A stretch of 64,000 nt of DNA from Dehalococcoidia bacterium (lineage in GTDB: Bacteria > Chloroflexota > Dehalococcoidia > Lucifugimonadales > QGNO01), in assembly GCA_965248955.1 (NCBI GenBank), contig OZ252212.1:1105037-1169036 (forward strand), given 5' to 3'. The notes beneath the pieces are model-generated. The model searched no databases and had not been told where the DNA came from. It saw only the letters and a program-made list of their open reading frames with translations. Position 1 is the first letter of the stretch. Each line of letters begins with the position of its first letter. The position numbers were made by a program, and so were the translations under genes. This document shows, one piece after another, positions 5,301 through 62,188 of this stretch.

Positions 5301-6854
5301 TAGCTGCTTGAAGTAGTTGAACAGCAGCTGCGGCCTGTCAGAAAGCACAGCCAGCGGCGTATCGTTGCCCATGGAGCCTACAGGCTCCGACCCCGTCTCA
5401 GACATAGGCTGGACCAGCATTCTGAGCTCTTCCAGGGTGTAGCCAAACGCCGCCTGTCTTTCCACCATTGATGAGCGTTCCACGGGCGGCTCCATTGTCT
5501 CTTCAGGCAGGTCCTCAAGCCGTACCATGTTTTCCCTGGTCCATTCACCATACGGCTGCCTTGTAGCGACCTCCGACTTGATCTCCTCATCGTCTATGAT
5601 CCGTCCCTGCTCCGTGTCCAAGAGGAACATCCGGCCCGGTCGCAGGCGCCCCTTGTACTGCACGTTTTCCGGCGACACCTCCAGCACGCCTGTTTCGGAC
5701 GCCATGATCAGCAGATTGTCCTTGGTCACGGTGTAGCGGAAAGGCCGCAGGCCGTTGCGGTCCAGATTGGCGCCTATCCTTGTTCCATCGGTGAAAGCTA
5801 TGAGCGCAGGGCCGTCCCACGGTTCAATCAGGTTGGCATGGTACTCGTAAAAAGACCGCTTTTCCGCTGAAATGAACTTGTTCCCGTTCCATGCCTCTGG
5901 AATCATCATCATCATGGCATGAGACAGAGTTCTGCCGCCCAGCACCAGCATCTCGAAAGCATTATCGAAGCTGGCCGTATCGCTAGCGCGGGGTGTAATA
6001 ATTGGGAATAGCTTCTTCACGTCATCACCAAACATGGGTGACGACAACAGGGCCTCGCGGGCCGTCATCCAGTTACTGTTGCCCCTCAGCGTGTTGATCT
6101 CTCCATTGTGCGATATGTAGCGGTACGGATGCGCCAGCTTCCATGAGCCCAGCGTGTTTGTGCTGAACCTGGAATGCACCATGGCAAAACCGGATTCCAT
6201 TTGGGGGTTCTTCAGATCCGGGTAGAAGTGCTCTACTTGCGTGCCTGTGAGCAGTCCCTTGTAAACCACCGTGTTGGAGGAGAGACTGGAGATGTAGAAG
6301 GCATCCGCTCCCTTCATCCCGGAAGCAGCCACCGCGTTCTCTATCACTTTGCGTATGACGTATAGCTTCCGTTCCAAGGAGGCCTGATCAAGCACGTTGG
6401 AGCCCCGCCCCACAAAGAACTGCCGTATGACGGGCCGTACCGCCCTGGCCGTCTTGCCAATACGGCTTTCATCCACAGGGACGTCCCGCCATCCCAGGAA
6501 CCGCTGGCCTTCCGCCTGAACCACGCCTTCTATGATCTCCTCGCAGCGCGCCCTCTCCGCCTGGTCTTGCGGCAAGAACGCCATTCCCACCCCGTACTCA
6601 CCCCGCTGCGGAAGGTCTACTCCACTCTCATGGACAAAGAATGCGTGCGGAGTCTGGAGAAGTATTCCCGCCCCATCGCCCGTATCCGGGTCGCTGCCCT
6701 GGGCGCCGCGGTGCGCCAAATGTCGCAGCAAGTCAATGCCCCAATCGACAATCTGGTGCGACTTGCGGCCCTTTATATCGGCGACGACACCCACGCCGCA
6801 GGCGTCGTGCTCGAACTCGGGGCGGTACAGTCCTCTCGGCATGTCTTCTTTCAT
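2319..6854 (-). CDS. gltB: Glutamate synthase large subunit
   Basis: ORF runs to 6929, but the N-terminal catalytic Cys motif (HDACGVG) follows M26 (MKEDMPRG). The ATG at 6854 has a GAGGA 8 nt upstream and avoids overlap with glnA. Amidotransferase, FMN and GXGXG domains are recognisable. Confidence 0.9.
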
Positions 6855-6865
6855 CAAAGTGTTCC

Positions 6866-8215
6866 TCAAAGTACCGGCAGATAGCGCTTGAGCTCGTAGT
6901 CTGTGACGTGGGTACGATAGCTGTCCCACTCGATCTTCTTGTTCTTGATGAAGCTATTGAAAACGTGCTCACCGAGGGCGCGTTTCACCAATTGGCTCTG
7001 CTCAGCATAGCTGATTGCTTCAAAGAGGCTTTCAGGCAGTGTCTCCACGCCCCTGGCCTTTCTCTCTTCTTCCGACATCTGGTAAACGTTAGCTTCTACA
7101 GGGTCAGGAACCGGATATTCCTTCTCAACGCCCTCCAACCCGGCGGATAGGAGTACGCTGAATGCCAGGTATGGGTTACAGGCAGGGTCCGGAGCTCGGT
7201 ATTCAACGCGCACCGATTCTTCCTTTCCTTCACGGAAGGCGGGAATACGTATCAGGTCTGACCGGTTGATCCTGGCCCAAGAGATGTAGACAGGTGCTTC
7301 ATAGCCTGGCACCAGCCTTTTGTACGAGTTCACCCACTGATTGGTTACCGCCGTTATCTCTTGGGCATGCTTCATGAGACCAGCGACGAAACAGCGCGCC
7401 AGCCGCGACAGTTTGTAGGAGTCATTCTTTTCAAAGAAGACGTTGCTGTCCCCCTGAAACAGTGACATATTTACGTGCATGCCGTTGCCGTTCATGCTGG
7501 CCACTGGCTTGGGCATGAAGGTGGCGTAAAACCCGTATCTTATAGCCACCTCCTTTACTGCCAGGCGGTACGTCATCACGGTATCGGCCATGGTCAAGGC
7601 GTCCGTGAATCTCAAGTCTATCTCATGCTGGCTGGGCGCCACCTCGTGGTGGCTGTACTCCACTGGTATCCCCATCTCCTCCAGCATGAGGACAGTATCG
7701 CGTCTCAGCTCGGTGGATATGTCTTGCGGGGTCTGGTCAAAGTAACCACCGGCATCCAGGGGCTCGGTGCCGTCCGCGCTCTTGAAGTAGAAGTGCTCCA
7801 GCTCAGGTCCAACGTAGAATGTGTAGCCGAGGTTGCTTGCCCGCTCCAGATTACGCTTCAGCACCGTCCTGGAATCGCCCTCGAAAGCCATGCCGTCAGG
7901 GGTCAGGATGTCGCAAAACATGCGTCCTACCGCGTTCTGTTTGGGCCGCCAGGGGAGGATGCGAAAGGTGGTGGGATCGGGCATTGCCACCATATCGCTC
8001 TCATCAATGCGGGCGAAGTCTTCAATGGATGAACCATCAAATCCCATACCTTTGTCAAAAGCGTTCTCCAGTTCCGCCACATTCAGAGCAAACCCTTTGA
8101 GATTCCCCAGGATGTCCGTGAACCAGAGACGAACAAACCGCACGTCATTGTCTCTAACCGTGCGGAGTGTGTATTCAATAGCTTCTTCGCGATCTTGTTG
8201 CATAAGAAGAGACAC
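6866..8215 (-). CDS. glnA: Glutamine synthetase type I (GSI-alpha-like)
   Basis: 449 aa. Contains VRFVRLWFTDILG and other canonical GS motifs. No NLYDLP adenylylation motif. Confidence 0.9.
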   Translation of the reverse strand: MSLLMQQDREEAIEYTLRTVRDNDVRFVRLWFTDILGNLKGFALNVAELENAFDKGMGFDGSSIEDFARIDESDMVAMPDPTTFRILPWRPKQNAVGRMFCDILTPDGMAFEGDSRTVLKRNLERASNLGYTFYVGPELEHFYFKSADGTEPLDAGGYFDQTPQDISTELRRDTVLMLEEMGIPVEYSHHEVAPSQHEIDLRFTDALTMADTVMTYRLAVKEVAIRYGFYATFMPKPVASMNGNGMHVNMSLFQGDSNVFFEKNDSYKLSRLARCFVAGLMKHAQEITAVTNQWVNSYKRLVPGYEAPVYISWARINRSDLIRIPAFREGKEESVRVEYRAPDPACNPYLAFSVLLSAGLEGVEKEYPVPDPVEANVYQMSEEERKARGVETLPESLFEAISYAEQSQLVKRALGEHVFNSFIKNKKIEWDSYRTHVTDYELKRYLPVL

Positions 8216-17093: not shown

Positions 17094-18254
17094 ATGGCAG
17101 GAAGCTTGAGTGATTTCATAGAGGACAGCAAAAAGCTGGTCGGAGGGGAAGCGCCGGACGTGGAGCAAGGGGTTAGCGTGGCTGACTGGTCCGCAATCCA
17201 GAAGTTCGGCGCCGCGCTGGGCGACGTGAATCCCCTATACAACAACGCAGCAGGGGGCGTAGGCACCCTGTACAATACGCTGATAGCGCCTCCCAGCTTT
17301 GTTCTTGCTGCACGCACACCAGATTCCGGCGCCGCATACGAGCAAAAGGAGTATGGCCTGCGACGGTTTACCGTCCGTGTCTCTGCCGAGTGGAATGACG
17401 TAATACGGATGGCGGAACGGCTGGCGAGCGATCTGAAGGTGTCCGACGTGCGCAGCGGGCCCACGTGGGGGGACAGGGAGACGGCGGAAGTCGAATCCGT
17501 TGCCACTTACCGGACCATTCACGGAGGCGTAATAGCGACGGCTACGGGCACCGCGGCAATGGTGCCCTACACCCCAGGTGAGCCGCTCATTCAGGACAGG
17601 GACATCTACCAGTACACCGACGACGAGATCCAAAACCTGGAAAGGGACCTGGATGCCATCTTGCCGCACCGCGGCCAGGTGCCCCTGTATTGGAGCGAAG
17701 TAGAGGAGGGCGGTATGCTTCCCACCCTGGTGAAGGGGCCCGTGGAGTACAACTCCATGGAACTCTGGGAAGTTGCGCTGGCGAAGTCCAATACGGCCTC
17801 CTTGGGCCCTGTAGCCCACCGGCAGATACTGGACAGCCCGGGACGCCGAACCGTCAATCCCACCACAGAGTGGCCCTACTGGGACTTGGAGCAGACCTAC
17901 AAGGATCTGTTGTCGGTTAGCGCGTTGGGATTCAAGATGCCGGTGGCCAGAGGGTTGCATCGCTTTGCCTTGACCAGCCAGGTCATCACCAACTGGATGG
18001 GAGACCTGGGCTTTCTGCGCAGCATAAGCTTGGACTTGCCCAACCACTACTGCTATGGTGATACCATGTGGGTCAGCGGCCAGGTGGCCAGGAAGTTTGA
18101 AGAGACCGTTGGAAACGAGAATTACTACGCCGTCGAGGTCAAACTCTCCGGCAACAACCAGCTTGGGCAGACTCTTGTTGACGGCACGGCAGTGGTCTAC
18201 CTCCCTGAGAAGGGATTCCTGGTTGGCCTGCCAGTAGGCAGTCCATGGTGGTAA
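17094..18254 (+). CDS. Double hotdog-fold (FAS1-like N-terminal + MaoC-like) dehydratase/hydratase family protein, subunit A, copy 1
   Basis: 386 aa. Has a GDVNPLYNN motif of the MaoC_dehydrat_N type (Y in place of H). The second half begins LYWSEVEEGGMLP, a typical MaoC domain start. Good RBS (AAGGAGG). Aligns without gaps to the 386-aa paralog at 35314-36474. Confidence 0.7.
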   Translation: MAGSLSDFIEDSKKLVGGEAPDVEQGVSVADWSAIQKFGAALGDVNPLYNNAAGGVGTLYNTLIAPPSFVLAARTPDSGAAYEQKEYGLRRFTVRVSAEWNDVIRMAERLASDLKVSDVRSGPTWGDRETAEVESVATYRTIHGGVIATATGTAAMVPYTPGEPLIQDRDIYQYTDDEIQNLERDLDAILPHRGQVPLYWSEVEEGGMLPTLVKGPVEYNSMELWEVALAKSNTASLGPVAHRQILDSPGRRTVNPTTEWPYWDLEQTYKDLLSVSALGFKMPVARGLHRFALTSQVITNWMGDLGFLRSISLDLPNHYCYGDTMWVSGQVARKFEETVGNENYYAVEVKLSGNNQLGQTLVDGTAVVYLPEKGFLVGLPVGSPWW

Positions 18255-18299
18255 CGTACGCGTGCCGGGGCAATTGAAAAACAGACAAGGAGTGAGGCG

Positions 18300-19676
18300 A
18301 TGACGACAACTGGCGAGACTTTTGAAAGTTTGGTGAACGAGTTTCGTGAGGCGTCAAGGGGAATGATTGGCGAAGAGGTCCATGAAGGCTACCCCCTTGA
18401 TGTTGGCCTGTACCATGGGATGAACCAGCCCTACGACTCTTCTGGACCACCGTTCAAGAGTCCCTGGACTCTTACGGAGAAGGTTGCCAAGGCTTATGCC
18501 GTCCACATTGGGGATGACAATCCCCTCTACACCGACCCCGAGTATGCCAAGAACGGCCCCTACGGCTGTCTCACCACCCCGGGAACGGCGATGATCATGG
18601 CCCGTACCCCCATGTGGCACGGCCCTGAGGAGCTGTGGAGAGATCGGCCCGGCGGTATACCGTTCGCCAATTTCCATTCCGGTACGGCATGGGAATTCTA
18701 CGATGTCCTTCGTGTCGGCACAGGCCTCCGCAGTACCTCTAAGGCTACCGAGGTCATCGAGAAGCCGGGAGCGCAGGGCAACCTCTTCTTCCTCATCACG
18801 GACGTCTTCTACAGGGACATGCGCGGCGACCTCCTTGGCAAGTGCTACGGCACTCTGATCATGATCCCACGTGAAGAGATGGGCACCGGCCGCGCCATGT
18901 CCGTGGAGCGTCTGGGTGAGCGCATGATGTACGAGCGGCAAGCCGGCAAGTACAACCAGGAAAAAGTGGAGGAGCTCATCGACCTCATTGAGAAGGCGCA
19001 GCCCAGGGGCAAGGAGATACTCTACTGGGAGGATGTAAAGGAGGGAGACAAGCTGCCCACCTTCGTTGTGCCGCCTTGGAGCGACCAAGACTGGTCGGTA
19101 ACCGGATTTATCCGCAACGGCGCGGCGCGGTCATACGCTTTTGAGGCCGGCTACAAGGCGCGGAAGTACAAGCTCCTGCCGGGATTCGCCGGGAACCCCT
19201 ATACCCATCCCGTGACCCGCTGGCCATGGGCTCACGGCGAGGAGCACGGCGACGCCCTAATGGCTGCCTACCGCGGCCAGGCTCTGCCCTTTGACTGGGG
19301 CGGCCAGAGGTCGCAGATACCACAGGCCCTGATGAGCAACTGGATGGGCGACCACGGCTTCATCCGCCGCCTCCAGATGGCTCTGCGCCGGCCTATGTAC
19401 TACGGCGACTTGGGCATCTACAACGGAGAGGTGGTCAAGAAGTTCACGGAGGTACAGAAGGGTGAACCCGGCGAGGGCGCCGTGGACGGCGAGCGCACCT
19501 ACCACGCCGTCGGCATCAAGTACGAGGGACGCAACCATGAGGACCAGGTCTTCGTACAGGGCACCTCTGCGGTATACCTGCCCTCGCGTGAAGGCGGCAT
19601 GGTGCAACTACCCGTCCCGCACCTGGCCAAGCCCACAGCCGTCCCCTACGAGACTTTCTACCGCGACTGGTACTAG
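18300..19676 (+). CDS. Double hotdog-fold dehydratase/hydratase family protein, subunit B, copy 1
   Basis: 458 aa. Contains GDDNPLYTD and LYWEDVKEGDKLP motifs. Its C-terminal half is paralogous to subunit A (NWMGDHGFIRRL vs NWMGDLGFLRSI). Confidence 0.7.
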   Translation: MTTTGETFESLVNEFREASRGMIGEEVHEGYPLDVGLYHGMNQPYDSSGPPFKSPWTLTEKVAKAYAVHIGDDNPLYTDPEYAKNGPYGCLTTPGTAMIMARTPMWHGPEELWRDRPGGIPFANFHSGTAWEFYDVLRVGTGLRSTSKATEVIEKPGAQGNLFFLITDVFYRDMRGDLLGKCYGTLIMIPREEMGTGRAMSVERLGERMMYERQAGKYNQEKVEELIDLIEKAQPRGKEILYWEDVKEGDKLPTFVVPPWSDQDWSVTGFIRNGAARSYAFEAGYKARKYKLLPGFAGNPYTHPVTRWPWAHGEEHGDALMAAYRGQALPFDWGGQRSQIPQALMSNWMGDHGFIRRLQMALRRPMYYGDLGIYNGEVVKKFTEVQKGEPGEGAVDGERTYHAVGIKYEGRNHEDQVFVQGTSAVYLPSREGGMVQLPVPHLAKPTAVPYETFYRDWY

Positions 19677-19685
19677 ACCCGTATG

Positions 19686-33892: not shown

Positions 33893-35260
33893 CTAGTACC
33901 AGTCGCGGTAGAAGGTCTCGTAGGGGATGGCTGAGGGCTTGGCCACGTGCGGGATGGGGAGTTGCACCATGCCGCTTTCACGTGATGGCAGGTAGACAGT
34001 GGAGGTGCCCTGTACAAAGACTTGGTCCTCCTGATTGCGACCCTCGTACTTGATGCCGACGGCGTGGTAGGTGCGCTCGCCGTCCACGGCGCCTTCGCCG
34101 GGTTCACCCTTCTGCACCTCGGTGAACTTCTTGGTGATCTCGCCGTTGTAGAGGCCGATGTCGGAGTAGTAGAAGGGTCTGCGCAGAGCCATCTGTAGCC
34201 GGCGGATGAAGCCGTGGTCGCCCATCCAGTTGCTCATCAGGGCCTGAGGTATCTGAGACCTCTGGCCGCCCCAGTCAAAGGGGAGAGCCTGGCCGCGGTA
34301 GGCTGCCATTAGGGCGTCGCCGTGCTCGTCGGCGGCGCCCCAAGGCCAGCGGGAGACGGGATGGGTGTAGGCAAAGCCTCCGGGTCCCTCGTGCTGGATG
34401 TGCCGGCGCATCTTGTAGCCGCCCTCGAACTGGTAGCCCCTGCCTGGGCCGTTGCGTATGAATCCGGTGGCGGTCCAGTCCTGGTCTGTCCAGGGGGGGA
34501 TGATGAAAGTGGGTAGCTTGTCTCCCTCGTTGACGTCCTCCCAGTAGAGGACCTCCTTGCCCCTGGGTTTGGACTTCTCCATGAGGTCGAGGATCTCCTC
34601 CACCTTCTCGGCGTTGAACTTGGGGACGTTGCGCTCGTACATCATGCGCTCGCCCAGACGCTCCACGGACATGGCGCGGCCGGTGCCCATCTCTTCACGG
34701 GGGACCATGATGAGGGTGCCGTAGCACTTGCCGAGGAGGTCGCCGCGCATGTCCCAGTAGTTGACGTCAGTGATGAAGAAGAAGAGGTTGCCGTGGGCGC
34801 CTGGCTTTTCGATGATCTCCTTGCCCACGGAGGAAGTCTTGAAGCCGGTGCCGACGCGGAGGACGTCGAAGAACTCCCAAGCGGTGCCGGAGTGGAAGTT
34901 GGCGATGGGCCAGCCGCCGACACGACGGGCGCCGTGCCACATGGCGTTTCTGGCGATGATGAGAGCGGTGCCTGGTGCGATGAGGCATCCGTAAGGCCCG
35001 TTCTTGGCGTATTCGGCGTCGGTGTAGAGCGGGTTATCGTCGCCGATACTGGCGGTGTAGGCCTTGATCACGGGTTCGGTGAGCACCCAAGGGCTCTTGT
35101 AGGGTGGGCCTGAGGTGTCATAGGGCTGAGTGGTGCCCGGATAGAGGTACATACCAAGCGGGTATCCTTCCCCGATGACCTCATTTTCGAGGTCTTCATG
35201 GGAAAGCCGCCTGAACTCGTCGACTAGGCTTTCAAAGGTCTGTTTTTCTTCTGTGGTCAT
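33893..35260 (-). CDS. Double hotdog-fold dehydratase/hydratase family protein, subunit B, copy 2
   Basis: 455 aa. Close paralog of the 18300-19676 product. The C-terminal 140 aa or so are nearly identical. Confidence 0.7.
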   Translation of the reverse strand: MTTEEKQTFESLVDEFRRLSHEDLENEVIGEGYPLGMYLYPGTTQPYDTSGPPYKSPWVLTEPVIKAYTASIGDDNPLYTDAEYAKNGPYGCLIAPGTALIIARNAMWHGARRVGGWPIANFHSGTAWEFFDVLRVGTGFKTSSVGKEIIEKPGAHGNLFFFITDVNYWDMRGDLLGKCYGTLIMVPREEMGTGRAMSVERLGERMMYERNVPKFNAEKVEEILDLMEKSKPRGKEVLYWEDVNEGDKLPTFIIPPWTDQDWTATGFIRNGPGRGYQFEGGYKMRRHIQHEGPGGFAYTHPVSRWPWGAADEHGDALMAAYRGQALPFDWGGQRSQIPQALMSNWMGDHGFIRRLQMALRRPFYYSDIGLYNGEITKKFTEVQKGEPGEGAVDGERTYHAVGIKYEGRNQEDQVFVQGTSTVYLPSRESGMVQLPIPHVAKPSAIPYETFYRDWY

Positions 35261-35313
35261 TTCACGGCTCCTTTCTCCTCACTTTCAGAACAATCGGTCA
35301 ACGTCCTACGGGC

Positions 35314-36474
35314 CTACATCCAGGGATTGCCAATAGGAAGACCCACCAGGAAGCCTCTTTCCGGCAGATAGACTACTGCCGTGCCGTCCACCAGCGTTTG
35401 CCCCAGCTGATTGTGGCCGGAGAGTTTGACCTCCACCGCAGAATAATTGGCGTCGCCAACTTGCTCGTTGAACTTTCTGGTCACCTCGCCGGTGAGCCAC
35501 ATGGTGTCTTCGTACAGGTAGTGATTGGGAATATCCAGGGACATCCTGCGCAGGAAGCCTAGGTCGCCCATCCAGTTGGTTACGACCTGGCCGGCTAGGG
35601 CGAAGCGCATCAGTCCCTTGGAGACGGGCATCTTGAAGCCCAGTGCTTTCACAGCCAGAATGTCGCCGAAGGCCTGCTCTATGTCCATATAGGGCCAGTC
35701 GTTGCTGGGATTGACAGCTATCCTGCCGGGCCTATCCAGGATCTGGCGGTGGGCTACGGTGCCAACGGAAAGGGCGGTGGGCTTGGCCTCAGCCACCTTC
35801 CAGGAGGATATCTCCGTGTAGTAGAGCGGACCCTTGACTAGGGTGGGCAGCTTGTCACCTACCTGGACCTCGCTCCAGTAGAGGGGGACGTCGCCGCGGT
35901 GTGGGGCTATGGCGTCCAGATCGTCTTCCAGCTTGCGGATCTCTTCGTCGGAATACTGGTAGATCTCTCTATCTTCTATGAGGGGCTCGCCCATGGAATA
36001 GGGCACTATAGTCGCCGTTCCCCTGGCCTGGGCCAGGACACCGCCAAAGACAGTGCTGTAAGTGGCGGTGGAGTCCACCTCTACGGTCTCCCTGCTCTCC
36101 CAATTGGGCCCGTTGCGTACGTCGGTCACCTTCAGGTCGGTCATCAGCCGCTCTCCCAGGCGAATGACGTCGTTCCACTCTGCACAGGCACTGGTGCTGA
36201 ATCTACGCAGGCCGTACTGCTTCTGCTCGTAGGTTGCACCTGAATCCGGAGTGCGGGCGGAGAAAATGAAGGTGGGAGGCGCGATCATGGTGTCGTAGAG
36301 AGTGCCGACGCCGCCCGCGGCGTCGTTGTAGAGTGGATTTACATCACCCAATGCAGAGCAGAACTTCTGAATGGATGACCAATCGGCCACTTTGACACCT
36401 TGCGGTACGTCCGTGGCGTTTTGCCCAATCAGGGCTTTGGAATCGTCAATAAACTCTTTCAACTTATCTGCCAT
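35314..36474 (-). CDS. Double hotdog-fold dehydratase/hydratase family protein, subunit A, copy 2
   Basis: 386 aa. Gapless paralog of the 17094-18254 product. Confidence 0.7.
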   Translation of the reverse strand: MADKLKEFIDDSKALIGQNATDVPQGVKVADWSSIQKFCSALGDVNPLYNDAAGGVGTLYDTMIAPPTFIFSARTPDSGATYEQKQYGLRRFSTSACAEWNDVIRLGERLMTDLKVTDVRNGPNWESRETVEVDSTATYSTVFGGVLAQARGTATIVPYSMGEPLIEDREIYQYSDEEIRKLEDDLDAIAPHRGDVPLYWSEVQVGDKLPTLVKGPLYYTEISSWKVAEAKPTALSVGTVAHRQILDRPGRIAVNPSNDWPYMDIEQAFGDILAVKALGFKMPVSKGLMRFALAGQVVTNWMGDLGFLRRMSLDIPNHYLYEDTMWLTGEVTRKFNEQVGDANYSAVEVKLSGHNQLGQTLVDGTAVVYLPERGFLVGLPIGNPWM

Positions 36475-36635: not shown

Positions 36636-39383
36636 CTAATCTATGACCCTGTCCGTGACCGAAGGCTCCCGCGCTAGATTCTGCCGTACTGTGGCGACCC
36701 ACTCTGGGTCAAGGCCCAGGGCCTGCGTCACCGCCTCGTCTATCTGGCGGCGCACGGGGTCTTGGTTCATCTGTGGGAGGGGCAAGAGGACATCGTTCTG
36801 CAGCCAGTCAAACCAGCCGTCCAGCAACTCACGATCGGCGCTACCAAGGGCCTCAAAGTTGGGCACCCGCAGCCCGCGCAGCGTGTCCAGGGAGAAGGAA
36901 GGGTATGAAGGTTTGCGGTTGTCGCGCCCTCCCAGCAGCAACAGCAGGCCGGGAGTGGAGTTGAGGTAGAGGCATAGCGCCTTGGCAATGTCGGGATCGT
37001 TAGGACGGCACGGCGTCCAAATCGAGCCTACGGCAGGTGTCTCCAGCATCACTGCGGCTACCCGCGCCAATGGCAGCCAAAGCCGATGAGGTAGCAGCAT
37101 ATTGCTGCGCTGCTCCCAGTAGCTGTCCGCTAAGCGGCGCTCACGCTTGGAGGGTTTAGGCTCAATGTAAGAATCGGTCTCCGCCCGCATGGAAGTGGTG
37201 ACGTCCGTCTTGTGATACCACAGAGCCCGGCGGCCCGATGGGGTTGGCATATCCGAGCGAGTATGCGAGTCGCGTATCCGCCTTCCCTCCGGGCCTACTT
37301 CAGCCAGTTGGCTCAGGGGCACAGTTGGGACGGACCAGGGATTTGTCTCGCTGAGCTTTCGTTTAGCCTCCACGAGGAAGGGCGACAGGAAATTGACGGC
37401 GGACCAGTCGCCTCGTTCAATGCGGGCGGAGTCTACGTGCTGAACGGTGAAGTCGCGGGAGACCCACTCACCTCGCTCAATCCTTGCCGCCGTGTCCAGG
37501 GCCTCGACGGGCATTGCGGGGTTTCTCGCCAGGTTGACCACCCGCGTGGCTGGCTTGGGCCCGTCATCTTTCCAACGACGGCAGATAAGCAGAACTTCTC
37601 CAATACTGGTGTTCTCCGAGAAGAAGATGCGGTTAGGGTCGTGGGAGGTGACGATGGTGTCCACGTGAAAGTTCCGGGCTAGATATTTGCGTAACGCTAG
37701 ATTGCCAGGAGCTGTGGGCACTACGGATGGCAAGACTAGCGCCAGTGTTCCGGAATCTGACTTGAGTAGATTGTTTGCCAATACCGTAAAAGGGCCGCCG
37801 GATGAGTGCAAACGGGCGGCGGCGCGTTCGGGCCCGGCAGGACTGCCTAACCTGTCAAACCAGGGAACCGTAACGTCGTCGCCCAACACCTTCTTCTCAT
37901 GTTCCTTAATGGCCAACTCGTCGGCGCGGCTGAACTGGTCGTGGCGCAGACTGTCGCGGGTGAACGGCGGGTTCATGATCACCAAGTCCATCTGTGGGGG
38001 TCGTTCTCCCGATTCCTGTCCGCTCTCCACCTGCTGTGTGGCGGAGGGCCAGCCGGCAAGCCTGGGCTGGCCTGAGAGGAATTCCAGTGAGCCGAGGTAG
38101 GGTGTGTCGTCGAACACGCCGAGCAGCGTCCGGTGGATGTTCATCCGTCCAAAGCTGATCTTTGGCGCCAGCATTCCCAGCGTGCTAGCGGCCATGTGTG
38201 TCGCAGACAGATTCACGTCGTAGCCCCACAACACATCTTCTACCAGGGACAGACCTAGATACTCGTCGTCCCGTGGATCAAGCGGCCCAGCGGCGCTGCG
38301 CAGGTCGCGAATGCGCTCCGCGGCGGCCATGAGCAATGTGCCGGTGCCGCAGGCGGGATCGCATATCCTCAGGTTGGCTATGTAGTTGGGGTTGGACCAA
38401 TCGCCGTCCTCCTTCCGCAGGGCCAGGTTCGCCAGCAGCACGGCGGCGGCGGTGGAAGTGTAGAAGGAACCGTCGTAGCGGGCCGTGTCCAGTACCTTGT
38501 GGAAGATGCGGCCAAGCAGGTCGTGACGCAGGCCATGCACCCGCTCCGATACTCGTGCTACCACGGCCGCCAGACTCCTCACCGCTTGGCTGGTGTCGGG
38601 GTCTGTCGTTAGCTCGGCCAGTGCCGTGCGGCCTGTCTCAAAAACGGGACGGTAGTCCACAGCGAGGATGCCGCGCCACGCCTCTCTGAAGGCGCTGATA
38701 GCGGCATCATACTCCGCGCAATCTGTTGCGCTGGCGGGAGGCCACTCCCCGTCGTAATCCTCCGGGCGCTCGGCCGGCAGGAACTGTTGGACGCGATGGT
38801 GGAAGAGCATGGCCGTTGCCACCACCAGCATCCCTCGCTTGGCGGCCACAAAGTAGCCGTCGCTGTGCTCTCCACCCCCGGGCTTGGTGGCGGGTAAGTC
38901 TAGTGCCTGCGCCAGCGCACGGCGCACTGGAGTCTTCAGCCGCTGGACGGCTTGGTCCAGTCCGTCCGAGAGCCACTGCGCCGCCACGTCCGCGCCGCTC
39001 AGAGATCGAGGCGCTTGCAGAACGGCCTGGGCAAGCTGCGCAAGTCCGCCGGTCGACCACTCGCCAGCGGGTTCGCCCACCTTTGTGCGGACGGTCCAGG
39101 TCAGTTCTGCGTCTGCAAGATTGTCCTCTGTGACGCCGTCAGGGTAGCAGACGGCAAAGACCACGGTTGCCAGCCTTTGACGTAGGCGGGCGTCGGCGTC
39201 CTTGATAGCCTGCGCCTTGCGGTTGAAACCTGTCTCCGCTTCCAAGACGACGCGCAGGCCGTCCACCTCTGCAACAACGTCCATCCTCTTGCGCCCGCCG
39301 CGCTGCTCAAAGTCAGCCTCTACTCCACGCTCTGTAAGTAGCTTCGCCAGAGCCCGGTTCTGGAAGTCTTCCTGCTTGTTCAT
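36636..39383 (-). CDS. Large fused N6-adenine DNA methyltransferase-like protein with N-terminal PD-(D/E)xK-like module (Type IIG/IIL restriction-modification-like)
   Basis: 915 aa. SAM motif I is ICDPACGTGTLLMAAA and catalytic motif IV is VIMNPPFTRD (gamma-class order). N-terminal RMDVVAEVDGLRVVLEAETG gives D35...E48-x-E50. The C-terminal region of about 350 aa could be a target-recognition domain. Confidence 0.65.
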   Translation of the reverse strand: MNKQEDFQNRALAKLLTERGVEADFEQRGGRKRMDVVAEVDGLRVVLEAETGFNRKAQAIKDADARLRQRLATVVFAVCYPDGVTEDNLADAELTWTVRTKVGEPAGEWSTGGLAQLAQAVLQAPRSLSGADVAAQWLSDGLDQAVQRLKTPVRRALAQALDLPATKPGGGEHSDGYFVAAKRGMLVVATAMLFHHRVQQFLPAERPEDYDGEWPPASATDCAEYDAAISAFREAWRGILAVDYRPVFETGRTALAELTTDPDTSQAVRSLAAVVARVSERVHGLRHDLLGRIFHKVLDTARYDGSFYTSTAAAVLLANLALRKEDGDWSNPNYIANLRICDPACGTGTLLMAAAERIRDLRSAAGPLDPRDDEYLGLSLVEDVLWGYDVNLSATHMAASTLGMLAPKISFGRMNIHRTLLGVFDDTPYLGSLEFLSGQPRLAGWPSATQQVESGQESGERPPQMDLVIMNPPFTRDSLRHDQFSRADELAIKEHEKKVLGDDVTVPWFDRLGSPAGPERAAARLHSSGGPFTVLANNLLKSDSGTLALVLPSVVPTAPGNLALRKYLARNFHVDTIVTSHDPNRIFFSENTSIGEVLLICRRWKDDGPKPATRVVNLARNPAMPVEALDTAARIERGEWVSRDFTVQHVDSARIERGDWSAVNFLSPFLVEAKRKLSETNPWSVPTVPLSQLAEVGPEGRRIRDSHTRSDMPTPSGRRALWYHKTDVTTSMRAETDSYIEPKPSKRERRLADSYWEQRSNMLLPHRLWLPLARVAAVMLETPAVGSIWTPCRPNDPDIAKALCLYLNSTPGLLLLLGGRDNRKPSYPSFSLDTLRGLRVPNFEALGSADRELLDGWFDWLQNDVLLPLPQMNQDPVRRQIDEAVTQALGLDPEWVATVRQNLAREPSVTDRVID

Positions 39384-39426
39384 GCTACCTTGTTTTATAT
39401 GTGGCCAGTAGAAAAACGCCTACGGC

Positions 39427-39804
39427 CTAGTTGCTCTGGCAGCCGCAATGGCAATCTATCTCCTCATCATCCTCTGCTGCGCACTCATGGTCGAATATAT
39501 CCCCTCCAGTCGTGCGAGCCAGCATATACGTGTACAAAAGATCATCGTGCTGCTCACCCACAGACATTGAGGCTTCGTACACCGACTCGAGGCAAGAGTC
39601 GCAGACATCCCCTTTCGTCGTTACCGTCCCGAATGACTCCTCCCACGGCAAGATTCCAACCCGGCAACCACAGTTACAATCCACTTCCTCGTCACCATCC
39701 TCCTCGCAGAAGTGGTCAGAGATTCTGGCCCCGAACTTAAGCGCGAGAGTATGAATGAAATTGGCATCCTCGTACTCCTCTCCCGCCAACTTTGCGGATG
39801 CCAC
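39427..39804 (-). CDS. Highly acidic tandem-repeat cysteine-rich protein (two 58-aa CxxC...C-x9-CxCGC units); 5' end uncertain
   Basis: The ORF-track model starts at GTG 39804. The internal repeat aligns without gaps (23/58 identical, all 6 Cys aligned). The first unit continues in frame up to 39867, upstream of the called start. The stop lies 43 nt upstream of the methyltransferase-like gene on the same strand. Confidence 0.55.
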   Translation of the reverse strand: MASAKLAGEEYEDANFIHTLALKFGARISDHFCEEDGDEEVDCNCGCRVGILPWEESFGTVTTKGDVCDSCLESVYEASMSVGEQHDDLLYTYMLARTTGGDIFDHECAAEDDEEIDCHCGCQSN

Positions 39805-40097
39805 TACAGCGTCGATGCAAGACCCGCAGACAAACTTTTCTTCATTTGCCCATGCTGAACCGTCCTCCTAATTGTTCCTGGGGCACGCTCCGCGCTACGC
39901 CCAAGCGGGTGGTGGCCGGGGCATCCGACATTTCTTACTTACCCCTACCCGCCTCCGTCTCCTATACTTATCTACATGAACTGGAGGAAGCTAAATGCCG
40001 TGGCGAAACCCGCAACTCTATCTACGGAATTCGGATTTGTTTCCCATATTTGCAAAAAGGTGGTTCGTTTTTAGCCTTGTACTAGACATAACGTCTG

Positions 40098-40139
40098 AAA
40101 CAAATACCCCCTGCTCAGTGCCCCGCCTCCATGAGCAGG
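40098..40139 (-). terminator. Candidate terminator after ispG
   Basis: On the minus strand, CCTGCTCA-14 nt-TGAGCAGG followed by GGGTATTTGTTTC. Confidence 0.4.
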
Positions 40140-40186
40140 CCTTCCACGGGAATGAGCCTCTGGGAAACCGGGTCAACGCCAAGTGG

Positions 40187-41305
40187 TCAAAGAGCCTCCA
40201 CCTCTTCCATGAGGGCTGTGAGCATCTGCGATTCTTCAACCACGCGCACCTTCTGGCCTTTGCGGAAGATGACGGCGCGTCCCGCCCCGGCGGCTATGCC
40301 AACGTCGGCGTCCTTGGCTTCGCCGGGGCCGTTGACCTCGCAGCCCATGACTGCCACCTTCACGTTCTTGTCGATACCCTTGAGAAGCTCGTCCACCGTG
40401 TTGGACAGCTTGATGACGTCGACATCGGCGCGGCCACAGGAAGGGCAGGCGATCAGCGTGGTCCCCTTCTGGCGGAGCTCGAGCGACTTCAGTATCTCGT
40501 AGCCGGTGGCCACCTCTTCGCGGGAGTCATCGCTCAGGGAGACGCGAATGGTGTCGCCTATTCCCTCGTAAAGGAGTACGCCCAGGCCGATGGCGCTGCG
40601 AATGCTGCCCGATTTGGCTGTGCCCGATTCCGTGATTCCGAGATGAAATGGATAGGGCACCATTTCAGCCAGGCGGCGGTAGGCTTCAACGGTAGTGTGG
40701 ATGTCGAACGCTTTCATGGAGATTTTGATCAGGTCGAAGTCCAGCGCCTCCAGGATGCTAATCTCCCATAAGGCGGTGTCGACCATGTGGTCGACGACTG
40801 AGTACTGTCCAAAGGCGGCGACGCCCGTCTTGGGCAGCAGGTTTACGCCGTCGGATAGGCGGTGCTTGGCTCTGGTCTTGCCGATGCTGCCTACGGGGGG
40901 CAGACTGCCGAAGTTGACGCCGATGCGTATGGGGATGTCGCGCTCCTTGGCGGCCGACACCACCTGTTTGACGCGCTCCGGGTCGCGGATGTTGCCGGGA
41001 TTCAGTCGCAGGCAATCTACGCCGCCATTGATTGCTTCCAGTGCCAGCTGGTAGTGGAAATGAATGTCCGCCACCAGGGGCATGGAGATCTGCTTCCTGA
41101 TCTGAGGCAGAGCGAGCGCCGCGTCCATGTCGGGCACGGCGCAGCGGATTATCTCGCAACCGACTTCCTCCAGACCCTTTATCTGCTCCACGGTTGCCTT
41201 GACGTCGCGGGTGTCGGTCTTGGTCATCGACTGCACGGTTATGGGGGCGTCGCCCCCTACCTTTACATCGCCTACGTAAATGGGCTTGGTGATTCTGCGG
41301 TTCAA
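40187..41305 (-). CDS. ispG: 4-hydroxy-3-methylbut-2-en-1-yl diphosphate synthase
   Basis: Contains VGGDAPITVQSMT and the C-terminal Cys ligands CPSCGR...GCEVNGPGE. Confidence 0.95.
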   Translation of the reverse strand: MNRRITKPIYVGDVKVGGDAPITVQSMTKTDTRDVKATVEQIKGLEEVGCEIIRCAVPDMDAALALPQIRKQISMPLVADIHFHYQLALEAINGGVDCLRLNPGNIRDPERVKQVVSAAKERDIPIRIGVNFGSLPPVGSIGKTRAKHRLSDGVNLLPKTGVAAFGQYSVVDHMVDTALWEISILEALDFDLIKISMKAFDIHTTVEAYRRLAEMVPYPFHLGITESGTAKSGSIRSAIGLGVLLYEGIGDTIRVSLSDDSREEVATGYEILKSLELRQKGTTLIACPSCGRADVDVIKLSNTVDELLKGIDKNVKVAVMGCEVNGPGEAKDADVGIAAGAGRAVIFRKGQKVRVVEESQMLTALMEEVEAL

Positions 41306-62111: not shown

Positions 62112-62188
62112 GGGCGGTTAGCTCAGATGGTTAGAGCGTCGCGTTGACATCGCGGAGGTCACTGGTTCGAGTCCAGTACCGCCCACCA
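62112..62188 (+). tRNA. tRNA-Val (anticodon GAC), CCA encoded
   Basis: Hand-folded cloverleaf: acceptor GGGCGGT/ACCGCCC, D arm GCTC/GAGC, anticodon arm TCGCG-TTGACAT-CGCGG, T arm ACTGG-TTCGAGT-CCAGT, discriminator A, then CCA. Confidence 0.9.

What the first reader, a model, noticed from the sequence alone, without database searches (positions are those of the whole stretch)
39427..39870. Acidic six-cysteine tandem-repeat protein whose first repeat lies upstream of any canonical start codon
The minus-strand ORF encodes two 58-aa units that align without gaps. They are FVCGSCIDAVVASAKLAGEEYEDANFIHTLALKFGARISDHFCEEDGDEEVDCNCGCR and DVCDSCLESVYEASMSVGEQHDDLLYTYMLARTTGGDIFDHECAAEDDEEIDCHCGCQ. 23 of 58 positions are identical and all six Cys align in the pattern CxxC-x36-C-x9-CxCGC. 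The protein is very rich in Asp/Glu and I do not recognise the family. The called GTG start (39804) falls at residue 11 of unit 1. The first CxxC is encoded in the same frame upstream (39867-39805, EDGSAWANEEKFVCGSCIDAV), where there is no ATG, GTG or TTG. An ATG with a strong AGGAGG 10 nt upstream sits at 39853 in a different frame and stops after three codons (ATG GGC AAA TGA). Skipping the single T of that TGA joins it to the repeat frame as MGK-EEKFVCGSC. I see four possible explanations: a +1 frameshift site, an assembly indel, a non-canonical start, or a decaying first repeat. An acidic, metal-binding-looking protein 43 nt upstream of an RM-like enzyme on the same strand could be a DNA-mimic or regulatory partner.
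Basis: seen in the sequence. Interest (0 to 1): 0.7.

Follow-up and report, generated by a model that had tools for sequence, protein, structure and literature searches.

The report
Frameshifted novel acidic cysteine-rich accessory gene
A small, very acidic protein built from two copies of a previously undescribed cysteine/histidine motif is a real, conserved accessory gene of soil Dehalococcoidia that tends to sit in defence and mobile-DNA islands, and the odd start in this genome is one extra G after the normal ATG, not a special decoding mechanism.

Summary
The two 58-aa units, the 12 Cys, the out-of-frame ATG with AGGAGG 10 nt upstream and the lack of any in-frame start before the first CxxC are all there.

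The cause is simple. Eight related loci compared at the start read (A/G)TG-GCA-AC… in frame (all full-length protein homologues begin with M). The window alone reads ATGGGCAAA, one extra G. This is a single-genome 1-nt insertion, either a real inactivating mutation or an assembly error; reads are needed to decide. It is not a conserved +1 frameshift or a non-canonical start.

The gene is real (median dN/dS 0.21; all Cys and three His invariant). It belongs to a rare family: 26 hits among 1.84 billion representatives, with no Pfam, NCBIfam, PHROG, PADLOC or PDB match. The ~58-aa unit (CxxC…DHxC…CxCxC) also occurs alone (~64 aa) and in 7 copies.

Gene plus short leader behaves as a ~0.5-kb cassette:
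- It is absent from a syntenic relative whose methyltransferase is intact.
- It is flanked by duplicated tRNA-Val in one genome.
- It lies beside this methyltransferase family, inside type I RM operons, or next to toxin-antitoxin, ubiquitin-like, prophage or IS genes.

Function is inferred only: a metal-binding acidic modulator linked to defence islands.

The parts
39399..39921 (-). The ~523-bp cassette (short leader + Cys-rich gene + 28-nt tail). It is present in the window and L001 but replaced by about 43 unrelated bases in the syntenic relative L020.
   Evidence: Window against L020 by blastn and MAFFT: homology runs to window 39922 on the ispG side and resumes at 39398 on the methyltransferase side. 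Between non-syntenic loci, homology is limited to about -16..-80 to +420..+436 relative to the ATG.
39864..39869 (-). Shine-Dalgarno AGGAGG, 10 nt before the ancestral ATG.
   Evidence: Read directly. AGGAGG or a close variant sits at the same position in most of the 12 loci aligned: 9 read AGGAGG, and L009, L012 and L015 carry variants.
39842..39853 (-). Ancestral ATG start, now heading a 3-codon mini-ORF (ATG GGC AAA TGA). The run GGG at 39851-39849 holds one G more than every orthologue.
   Evidence: Eight orthologous loci read (A/G)TGGCAAC… and the window reads ATGGGCAAA.
39661..39834 (-). Repeat unit 1 (FVCGSC…CNCGCR, 58 aa). Its CxxC (39828-39817) lies upstream of any usable in-frame start in this assembly.
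   Evidence: C9 and C12 are invariant in 16 homologues.
39787..39804 (-). Internal alternative starts: GTG 39804-39802 (125-aa product) and TTG 39789-39787 (120-aa product, the call made by the source annotation). Neither has a Shine-Dalgarno.
   Evidence: for the ORF list. One search shows that the 120-aa product is the one on record (P0045, one contig of 2,006,147 bp). Sequence read.
39436..39609 (-). Repeat unit 2 (DVCDSC…CHCGCQ, 58 aa), intact. It is the unit closest to the stand-alone single-unit proteins.
39427..39429 (-). Stop codon TAG of the Cys-rich gene.
36636..39383 (-). Downstream 915-aa protein with an N6-adenine DNA methyltransferase domain (DPACGTGTLL and NPPF motifs), 43 nt after the Cys-rich gene. 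No nuclease domain was demonstrated.
   Evidence: Pfam N6_Mtase 4.8e-7. PADLOC mad2 7.9e-8 and weaker MTase, IIG and PglX hits. All NCBIfam hits lie far below their cut-offs. 77% identical to the gene that follows the Cys-rich gene in L017.

Best explanation
The locus encodes a genuine accessory protein of about 141 aa, made of two diverged copies of a previously undescribed ~58-aa acidic domain.

Shown:
- Each domain has two helices followed by an acidic Cys-rich tail. The invariant residues are CxxC, G, HxC and CxCxC.
- In this genome the gene carries one extra G directly after its ancestral ATG. Ribosomes that start at the strong Shine-Dalgarno/ATG therefore stop after three codons.
- The first CxxC cannot be translated by normal initiation. 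At best a poorly initiated 120-125-aa product with only unit 2 intact is made.
- This is a lineage-specific 1-nt insertion, not a decoding mechanism.

Unresolved: whether the insertion is a real early pseudogenising mutation or a consensus error in the assembly. I weigh it roughly 55:45 towards real.

Inferred:
- The domain binds metal through its six Cys and one His, most likely Zn. An Fe-S cluster is not excluded.
- The protein acts as a small acidic protein-binding modulator, for example an inhibitor or regulator of DNA-modifying or defence enzymes such as the adjacent methyltransferase-family protein or type I RM complexes.
- It spreads as a ~0.5-kb single-gene cassette among defence and mobile islands of Dehalococcoidia, and single-unit relatives are occasionally found in phage.
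For: Start and frameshift:
- Sixteen full-length homologues (139-148 aa, 71-94% identical) all begin with M and read straight into the first CxxC (consensus MATEE-x-FVC).
- Nucleotide alignments of 8 loci show (A/G)TGGCAAC after AGGAGG(A/G)…, against ATGGGCAAA in the window only.

Coding and selection:
- All 12 Cys plus H34, H47 and H122 are invariant.
- Median pairwise dN/dS is 0.21 over 45 pairs.

Family:
- A profile search of 1.84e9 representatives gives only 26 hits. They include stand-alone ~64-aa single units, other two-unit proteins and a 405-aa protein with 7 CxxC-led repeat units.
- Unit invariants are C3, C6, G35, H41, C43, C53, C55 and C57.
- No Pfam, NCBIfam, PHROG, PADLOC or PDB match was found.

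Decay elsewhere in the family:
- The copy in the circular 3.44-Mb, 188x genome OZ253548.1 has a nonsense codon plus a frameshift.
- L011 is a fragment. P0017, P0020, P0022 and P0023 are truncated or frameshifted.

Assembly quality:
- No other split genes were seen in the 64-kb window.
- There are almost no indels against L020 in 12 kb of coding sequence. A random error is therefore less likely, though still possible.

Cassette behaviour:
- L020 is syntenic at about 93% nt, has an intact 915-aa enzyme and lacks the gene.
- Homology between different contexts is limited to the gene plus a leader of 80 nt or less.
- In L002 the gene is bracketed by a 113-nt direct repeat that contains tRNA-Val.

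Context:
- Same methyltransferase family directly downstream in the window, L001 and L017.
- hsdM-hsdS-GNAT-[gene]-Schlafen/AlbA_2-hsdR in L008; by blastn L009 is syntenic with it on both sides, and L011 and L012 share the flank beyond the AlbA_2 gene, but their neighbours were not annotated.
- Type I RM and transposases in L015.
- BrnT/BrnA in L002.
- ThiF/E2/BubE and IS21 in L018.
- Terminase, protease and capsid genes in L004.
- By my reading of the ORF translations only (no domain search run): IS110-like and IS630-like transposases and a tyrosine-integrase-like protein in L007.
- A phage contig for the single-unit member in L014.
Against: - No reads were available, so real mutation and assembly error cannot be separated. 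The frameshifted product is on record from one contig only.
- Metal binding is inferred from residue conservation only.
- The AlphaFold models are weak (pLDDT 44 for the whole protein, 63 for one unit). Foldseek found nothing.
- The functional link to RM is circumstantial. RM genes are common in variable islands, and no background rate was computed.
- L020 and L021 show the methyltransferase does not need the gene, and most members of that large enzyme family (2798 hits) cannot have it.
- Several intact copies have no RM neighbour (L002, L004, L018).
- An inhibitor of RM sitting inside a host RM operon (L008) is not what a classical anti-restriction gene does.
Confidence: 0.7

Rival explanations
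1. Assembly or consensus error. The true genome has ATG GCA AAT GAA…, the gene is intact, and it starts at the ATG behind AGGAGG. Nothing biological happens at the start.
For: - The change is a single-base length difference in a G run (GG to GGG), next to a second substitution (ACT to AAT).
- Related records come from long-read metagenome assemblies. The low-coverage sibling contig L001 (1x) is riddled with split genes.
- The rest of the ORF shows no sign of decay. All invariant residues are retained and it is 94% identical to P0001.
- The frameshifted product is seen on one contig only.
Against: - The window shows no other split gene in 64 kb.
- It shows almost no coding indels against L020.
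- A 2-to-3 base run is not a typical homopolymer error.
- Independent, certainly real inactivations of this gene exist elsewhere, including a nonsense codon in a 188x circular genome.
Confidence: 0.42
2. Programmed +1 ribosomal frameshift. Translation starts at ATG 39853, and at AAA-UGA the ribosome slips +1 and continues as MGK-EEKFVC…
For: - A strong Shine-Dalgarno/ATG is followed after three codons by a stop.
- A +1 shift would restore the conserved frame exactly.
- A stop codon in the A site can stimulate +1 shifting in prfB (established knowledge).
Against: - It is not conserved. All eight related loci aligned at the start and all 16 full-length protein homologues are in frame with no shift site.
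- AAA re-pairing on AAU is poor.
- The Shine-Dalgarno is 16 nt upstream of the shift codon, whereas the prfB stimulator lies about 3 nt upstream.
- Removing one G yields exactly the orthologous codons ATG GCA AAT.
Confidence: 0.03
3. The protein is a dedicated partner of the downstream 915-aa methyltransferase-family enzyme, acting as its inhibitor, controller or DNA-mimic 'antitoxin'. The pair forms a two-gene system.
For: - The gene lies 43 nt upstream on the same strand.
- The same pairing occurs in L001 and in L017 with different flanks. The divergence is matched, at 79% for the small protein and 77% for the enzyme.
- In L021 the equivalent slot holds a TIR-domain gene translationally coupled to the enzyme, which suggests an exchangeable partner position.
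- The protein has an extreme acidic charge.
Against: - L020, the closest relative, has an intact enzyme and no small gene.
- The enzyme family has 2798 hits (more than 120 of the clusters listed are at least 70% identical), against about 26 hits for the small protein.
- Most contexts of the small gene lack this enzyme.
Confidence: 0.2
4. A metal-handling protein (metallothionein-like Zn/Cu buffer or small Fe-S protein) unrelated to DNA or defence. Its island location would be incidental to being an accessory gene.
For: - There are six Cys and one His invariant per 58-aa unit.
- The copy number of units is variable, from 1 to 7.
- The protein is acidic.
Against: - No metal transporter, regulator or Fe-S assembly gene recurs next to it.
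- No metallothionein or ferredoxin profile matches.
- The two conserved helices and non-ligand residues (LAR.xGGDIF.HEC) suggest a folded interaction domain rather than a thiolate cluster peptide.
Confidence: 0.12

Closest known systems
ArdA / Ocr-type acidic DNA-mimic anti-restriction proteins
   Same: It is a small, strongly acidic protein (pI about 4). It is encoded on mobile or variable DNA and is found repeatedly next to type I RM and other N6-adenine methyltransferase genes. A single-unit relative sits among small genes on a phage contig.
   Different: There is no sequence or profile similarity (Pfam, PHROG and PADLOC searches were empty). It has Cys/His metal-ligand motifs that ArdA and Ocr lack. 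It is often chromosomal and in one lineage lies inside a host hsdMS-hsdR operon. No structural evidence of DNA mimicry was obtained.
YacG-type small zinc-binding enzyme inhibitors (Zn finger plus acidic tail, blocks the DNA-binding site of gyrase)
   Same: A small Zn-ligand motif is combined with an acidic segment. This gives a plausible way for a tiny protein to inhibit a DNA enzyme. The comparison is from my own knowledge and was not tested here.
   Different: The ligand pattern differs: CxxC…HxC…CxCxC against C4. There is no sequence match, the protein is duplicated, and no gyrase context is present.
prfB (RF2) programmed +1 frameshift
   Same: A start/Shine-Dalgarno is followed by an early in-frame UGA, and the continuation lies in the +1 frame.
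   Different: There is no CUU-UGA-C slippery/stop context. The Shine-Dalgarno spacing is wrong. The site is absent from all orthologues. It is explained by one inserted G.
Genes embedded in type I RM operons (e.g. the PrrC anticodon nuclease between hsdS and hsdR)
   Same: In L008 the gene lies between hsdS and hsdR together with a GNAT and a Schlafen/AlbA_2 gene, as do other RM-linked accessory or defence genes. By blastn L009 is syntenic with L008 on both sides of the gene, and L011 and L012 share the flank beyond the AlbA_2 gene, although the genes in those three loci were not annotated.
   Different: It has no enzymatic domain. The embedding is seen in one lineage only. The relation to RM activity is untested.

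Membership tests
Programmed +1 ribosomal frameshift site (prfB type) | The shift site is conserved in orthologues | tested here: not met
   Eight related loci and 16 full-length homologues are in frame from (A/G)TG. Only the window has the extra G.
Programmed +1 ribosomal frameshift site (prfB type) | Slippery P-site codon that re-pairs in +1, followed by a poor stop context (CUU UGA C), with an internal Shine-Dalgarno about 3 nt upstream | tested here: not met
   The site is AAA UGA A. AGGAGG ends 16 nt upstream of AAA.
Programmed +1 ribosomal frameshift site (prfB type) | A trans-frame protein product is made | not testable with these tools
   This needs mass spectrometry, ribosome profiling or a reporter assay.
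ArdA / Ocr DNA-mimic anti-restriction proteins | Sequence or profile membership (Pfam ArdA, Ocr; PHROG anti-restriction families) | tested here: not met
   Pfam gave no hit at any threshold used (E up to 1-5), and PADLOC gave none for the Cys-rich protein (E up to 1). PHROGs gave only non-significant hits (E 0.02-0.38) to families that are not anti-restriction families.
ArdA / Ocr DNA-mimic anti-restriction proteins | Strong net negative charge | tested here: met
   33 D+E against 7 K+R, pI 4.05.
ArdA / Ocr DNA-mimic anti-restriction proteins | Surface charge pattern that mimics B-DNA, and inhibition of type I RM | not testable with these tools
   The models are too weak (pLDDT 44 and 63). Structure determination and restriction assays are needed.
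ArdA / Ocr DNA-mimic anti-restriction proteins | Encoded by phage early regions or by the leading region of conjugative elements | tested here: inconclusive
   One single-unit relative lies on a phage contig, and one copy lies beside a prophage head module. There are no hits in INPHARED phages, PLSDB plasmids or IMG/VR. Most copies are chromosomal islands.
Known zinc-finger, zinc-ribbon, metallothionein or ferredoxin families | Match to a curated profile or a solved structure | tested here: not met
   Pfam, NCBIfam and PDB sequence/profile searches were empty. Foldseek against PDB and BFVD gave a best E above 4.
SCIFF or radical-SAM-modified Cys-rich peptide precursors (RiPPs) | An adjacent radical SAM maturase and a short precursor with a leader | tested here: not met
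   No radical SAM gene occurs in any of the contexts annotated with Pfam. The only NCBIfam hits are lachnocin at E=0.13 and CYCXC at E=0.45, both over the CxCxC motif only.
RM controller (C) proteins | A small helix-turn-helix DNA-binding protein upstream of the RM genes | tested here: not met
   There is no HTH profile hit, and the protein is strongly acidic.

The most novel reading that the evidence does not exclude
The CxxC…DHxC…CxCxC acidic unit may be a new metal-binding inhibitor/regulator domain for DNA methyltransferase or restriction complexes. On this reading it is a metallo 'DNA or protein mimic' that travels as a ~0.5-kb single-gene cassette into the 5' side of RM and defence operons in Dehalococcoidia and is also used by some phages. 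The slot upstream of the 915-aa methyltransferase-family gene would then be an exchangeable partner position, holding the Cys-rich protein, a TIR protein or nothing.
Probability: 0.15. Interest if true: 0.7.

Novelty: new variant of a known kind. Interest (0 to 1): 0.35.

Why it matters
One inserted base is enough to mislead gene callers: the source annotation trimmed the protein to 120 aa from a TTG, and the 125-aa GTG product is not on record.

The lasting value has three parts.
1. The correct gene model is an ATG start and 141 aa with two units.
2. There is a compact, strongly conserved Cys6His acidic domain that no curated library or solved structure covers.
3. The gene behaves as a small movable cassette that lands beside methyltransferase/RM genes and other defence genes in an under-studied soil lineage.

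If the domain proves to modulate RM or other defence enzymes, it would add a new metal-dependent type of small inhibitor or regulator. If not, it is one more lineage-restricted small metalloprotein of unknown role.

Tried and rejected
- Non-canonical start: the in-frame stretch 39867-39805 holds no ATG, GTG, TTG, CTG or ATH codon. Rejected.
- A second ATG (39845) opens a third frame that stops after 13 codons. Irrelevant.
- Leader riboswitch or structured RNA: Rfam found only tRNAs in L002 and L003 and nothing in window 39300-40300. RNAalifold on nine leaders gave -2.5 kcal/mol and 4 pairs. Rejected.
- The promoter and terminator scan of 39300-40250 found nothing.
- Searches for relatives in INPHARED phages, PLSDB plasmids, IMG/VR and JGI metagenomes all returned nothing. 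The unit alignment was too variable for the locus scan.
- A second word-indexed protein search with the unit profile returned only 7 proteins.
- The exact-product look-up of the 125-aa GTG product failed. The source had called the 120-aa TTG product, which is on one contig only, so there is no independent assembly of the frameshift.
- The 6-nt GGCCAC at both cassette ends in the window is not kept in L001. Treated as chance.
- One literature search on acidic or zinc anti-restriction proteins turned up nothing that matches this motif.
Full report
**1. What is in the sequence**

On the minus strand, the frame that runs from TAG (39870-39868) to TAG (39429-39427) reads EDGSAWANEEKFVCGSC…CHCGCQSN.

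- It holds two 58-aa units, at 39834-39661 and 39609-39436, joined by a 17-aa linker.
- The units align without gaps, with 23 of 58 positions identical and all six Cys in register.
- The local alignment score is 141 against 28.5±5.4 for 5000 shuffles (z=20.9). With Cys masked the z is still 13.1.
- The protein is very acidic: 33 D+E against 7 K+R, pI 4.05.
- The first in-frame start is GTG 39804, at residue 11 of unit 1. A TTG follows at 39789.
- Upstream, AGGAGG (39869-39864) lies 10 nt before ATG 39853, but that ATG reads ATG GGC AAA TGA in another frame.
- The stop of the ORF lies 43 nt before the ATG of a 915-aa gene on the same strand.

**2. Why the first repeat has no start**

The protein has 23 relatives in the 5.8-billion-protein collection. 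Sixteen of them are full length (139-148 aa, 71-94% identical), and all begin with M and read straight into the first CxxC (consensus MATEE-x-FVC).

At the DNA level, eight loci from different genomes all read AGGAGG…(A/G)TG GCA AC. …, in frame with the repeats. The window alone reads ATGGGCAAATG.

- Removing one G from the run 39851-39849 gives ATG GCA AAT GAA GAA AAG TTT GTC TGC, which translates as MANEEKFVC. This is the orthologous reading.
- The surplus base is therefore a G directly after the start codon.
- The anomaly is one 1-nt insertion in one genome.

A programmed +1 shift is not supported.
- No orthologue has such a site.
- AAA-UGA-A is not a prfB-like context.
- The Shine-Dalgarno lies 16 nt, not about 3 nt, upstream of the would-be shift codon.

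A non-canonical start is not supported either. The in-frame upstream stretch has no near-cognate start worth considering.

**3. Real mutation or assembly error?**

I could not see reads. The source annotation called the 120-aa TTG product, and that product is on record from a single 2.0-Mb contig. The 125-aa GTG product is not on record. No independent assembly confirms the extra G.

For a real mutation:
- The 64-kb window has no other visibly split gene.
- It has almost no indels in about 12 kb of coding sequence when compared with the 93%-identical relative L020.
- A GG to GGG change is not a typical long-homopolymer error.
- This gene is demonstrably inactivated elsewhere. The copy in the circular 3.44-Mb, 188x genome OZ253548.1 carries a nonsense codon (Y32*) plus a C-terminal frameshift.
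- L011 keeps only a fragment, and P0017, P0020, P0022 and P0023 are truncated or frameshifted.

For an error:
- The related records are long-read metagenome assemblies, and the 1x sibling contig L001 is full of split genes.
- The rest of the window's ORF shows no decay at all.

I put the odds at roughly 55:45 for a real and recent mutation. In either case the ancestral gene model is the ATG-initiated 141-aa protein.

**4. The gene is real and constrained**

- All 12 Cys plus H34, H47 and H122 are invariant in 16 sequences.
- Pairwise Nei-Gojobori dN/dS over ten loci has a median of 0.21, with a range of 0.09-0.66 and a median dS of 0.49.

**5. The family**

An exhaustive HMMER profile search of 1.84 billion representatives returned only 26 proteins. 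Besides the Dehalococcoidia two-unit proteins, they include:
- stand-alone single units of about 64 aa (for example P0026, P0028, P0029, P0036-38, P0040, P0041, P0043, P0044);
- two other two-unit proteins (P0024, P0025);
- a 405-aa protein with 7 CxxC-led repeat units by eye, four of which meet the full CxxC…HxC…CxCxC pattern (P0034).

Aligned units share C3, C6, G35, H41, C43, C53, C55 and C57. The consensus is vC-x2-C-l-x-a…lA-x3-G-x-D-I-x-D-H-x-C-(acidic)-C-x-C-x-C-R. Unit 2 of the window protein is the one closest to the stand-alone units. L012 carries a 66-aa single-unit gene and shares flanking sequence with L008 and L009, where the two-unit gene sits. The two-unit form therefore looks like a tandem duplication with a diverged first copy.

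There is no match in Pfam, NCBIfam, PHROGs, PADLOC or the PDB, by sequence or by profile.

AlphaFold2 gave pLDDT 44 for the whole protein and 63 for one unit. The model shows two helices followed by a Cys-rich acidic tail. Foldseek found nothing in PDB or BFVD.

Six Cys and one His per unit fit a metal site, for example two Zn or an Fe-S cluster. This is inference only.

Relatives with organism names are all Dehalococcoidia MAGs. None was found in INPHARED phages, PLSDB plasmids, IMG/VR or JGI metagenomes.

**6. Cassette-like behaviour**

- Between non-syntenic loci, nucleotide homology (82-92%) is limited to about -16..-80 to +420..+436 relative to the ATG. That is the gene plus a short leader.
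- L020 is the contig that carries the closest homologue (91%) of the 915-aa protein. It is collinear with the window (frr-cdsA-dxr-rseP-ispG | enzyme | MaoC-like) but lacks the gene. Window 39921-39399 (523 bp) is replaced by about 43 unrelated bases.
- In L002 the 582-bp leader plus gene is bracketed by a 113-nt direct repeat (96% identical) made of a whole tRNA-Val(TAC) and its trailer.
- L003 has the same leader directly after a tRNA-Met.
- L018 keeps the first bases of the tRNA-Val at its 3' junction.
- The mechanism of movement is unknown. The leader has no Rfam match and no conserved fold.

**7. Neighbourhoods**

| Locus | Neighbours of the Cys-rich gene |
|---|---|
| Window, L001 | ispG upstream; 915-aa N6-adenine methyltransferase-domain protein downstream |
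| L017 | Different flanks; the gene is again followed (180 nt) by a 904-aa homologue, 77% identical, of that enzyme. The small proteins are 79% identical, so the pair has co-diverged |
| L021 | Shares L017's upstream CoA-transferase, but the slot before the enzyme holds a CAP12/PCTIR TIR-domain gene that overlaps the enzyme's start |
| L020 | The slot is empty |
| L008 | hsdM-hsdS-GNAT-[gene]-Schlafen/AlbA_2+HATPase_c_4-hsdR. By blastn L009 is syntenic on both sides; L011 and L012 share the flank beyond the AlbA_2 gene; their neighbours were not annotated |
| L015 | Type I RM about 3.5 kb away, plus transposases and AlpA |
| L002 | BrnT/BrnA and other small island genes |
| L018 | ThiF/E2/BubE ubiquitin-like system and IS21 |
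| L004-6 | Divergent from a terminase, S78 protease and capsid module |
| L007 | IS110-like and IS630-like transposases and a tyrosine-integrase-like protein, judged from the ORF translations only (no domain search run) |
| L014 | Single-unit P0038 among small genes next to a phrog_2554 gene found in 150 phage records |

The family thus lives in variable, defence-rich or mobile DNA. N6-adenine methyltransferase or RM genes are the commonest neighbour, in four independent contexts. The link is facultative, however. The enzyme family has 2798 hits, more than 120 of the clusters listed being at least 70% identical, against about 26 hits for the small protein.

The 915-aa protein itself is only shown to have the methyltransferase domain.
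- Pfam gives N6_Mtase at 4.8e-7.
- The MAD2, Alw26I and PglX hits lie far below their cut-offs.
- There is no PDB relative.
- A nuclease domain was not demonstrated, so 'RM-like' remains a description and not a finding.

**8. Mechanism proposed**

Shown:
- The protein is conserved, acidic and built of two units, with invariant Cys/His.
- Its start is broken by one inserted base.
- It is a cassette-like accessory gene.

Inferred:
- It folds around metal and uses its acidic surface to bind a basic, DNA-binding partner.
- It thereby tunes or blocks RM, methyltransferase or other defence enzymes. It may be used by hosts as a regulator within islands and by mobile elements or phage as a counter-measure.

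In this genome, ribosomes loaded at AGGAGG/ATG terminate after MGK. Without a Shine-Dalgarno before GTG 39804 or TTG 39789, little product is expected, and any product would lack the first CxxC. The copy is therefore probably non-functional or reduced to unit 2.

**9. Verdict**

The exotic readings (+1 frameshift, odd start) are rejected in favour of a single-base insertion. The protein family is new to curated databases, but its function is unproven. Interest is moderate and rests on the domain and its island or RM association, not on the start-codon puzzle.

Noticed in passing
L021:3210-4004 (+) against L017:8001-8426 (+) and L020:4678-5000: The position just upstream of the 915-aa methyltransferase-family gene is a variable slot. 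It holds a CAP12/PCTIR TIR-domain gene in L021 (overlapping the enzyme's start by 4 nt), the Cys-rich gene in L017, the window and L001, and nothing in L020.
   Followed up: partly
L002:5757-5869 and 6452-6564: A 113-nt direct repeat (96% identical) made of a complete tRNA-Val(TAC) plus a 36-nt trailer brackets the 582-bp leader plus gene. L003 has the same leader right after a tRNA-Met. L018 keeps the first bases of the tRNA-Val at the 3' junction.
   Followed up: partly
window 37000-38200 (-), inside the 915-aa gene: This part of the methyltransferase-family gene is only 80-85% identical to L020, while the rest of the gene and the flanks are 92-98% identical. It looks like a swapped or fast-evolving specificity region.
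   Followed up: no
window 17094-19679 (+) and 33893-36474 (-): A second, about 73%-identical copy of the two-gene MaoC/FAS1_DH-region dehydratase pair lies 14 kb away on the opposite strand.
   Followed up: no
L003/L010:5899-6330 (OZ253548.1, circular 3.44 Mb, 188x): The orthologue is a clear pseudogene, with Y32 changed to a stop plus a frameshift before the last CxCxC. No methyltransferase or RM gene was called within the 6 kb fetched on either side.
   Followed up: partly
L012:6007-6204: L012 shares flanking sequence with L008 and L009, which hold the two-unit gene, but it holds a 66-aa single-unit gene. This is either the ancestral state or a unit deletion.
   Followed up: partly
L008:5431-5892 and 6405-7820: A GNAT acetyltransferase gene and a Schlafen/AlbA_2 + HATPase_c_4 gene are embedded with the Cys-rich gene between hsdS and hsdR of a type I RM operon.
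   Followed up: no
L001 (contig labelled 1x): dxr, ispG and the methyltransferase-family gene are each split into several ORFs. This shows how error-prone low-coverage siblings of these assemblies can be.
   Followed up: no
window 62112-62188 (+): tRNA-Val(GAC) is the only tRNA gene in the window. It is not near the cassette.
   Followed up: no
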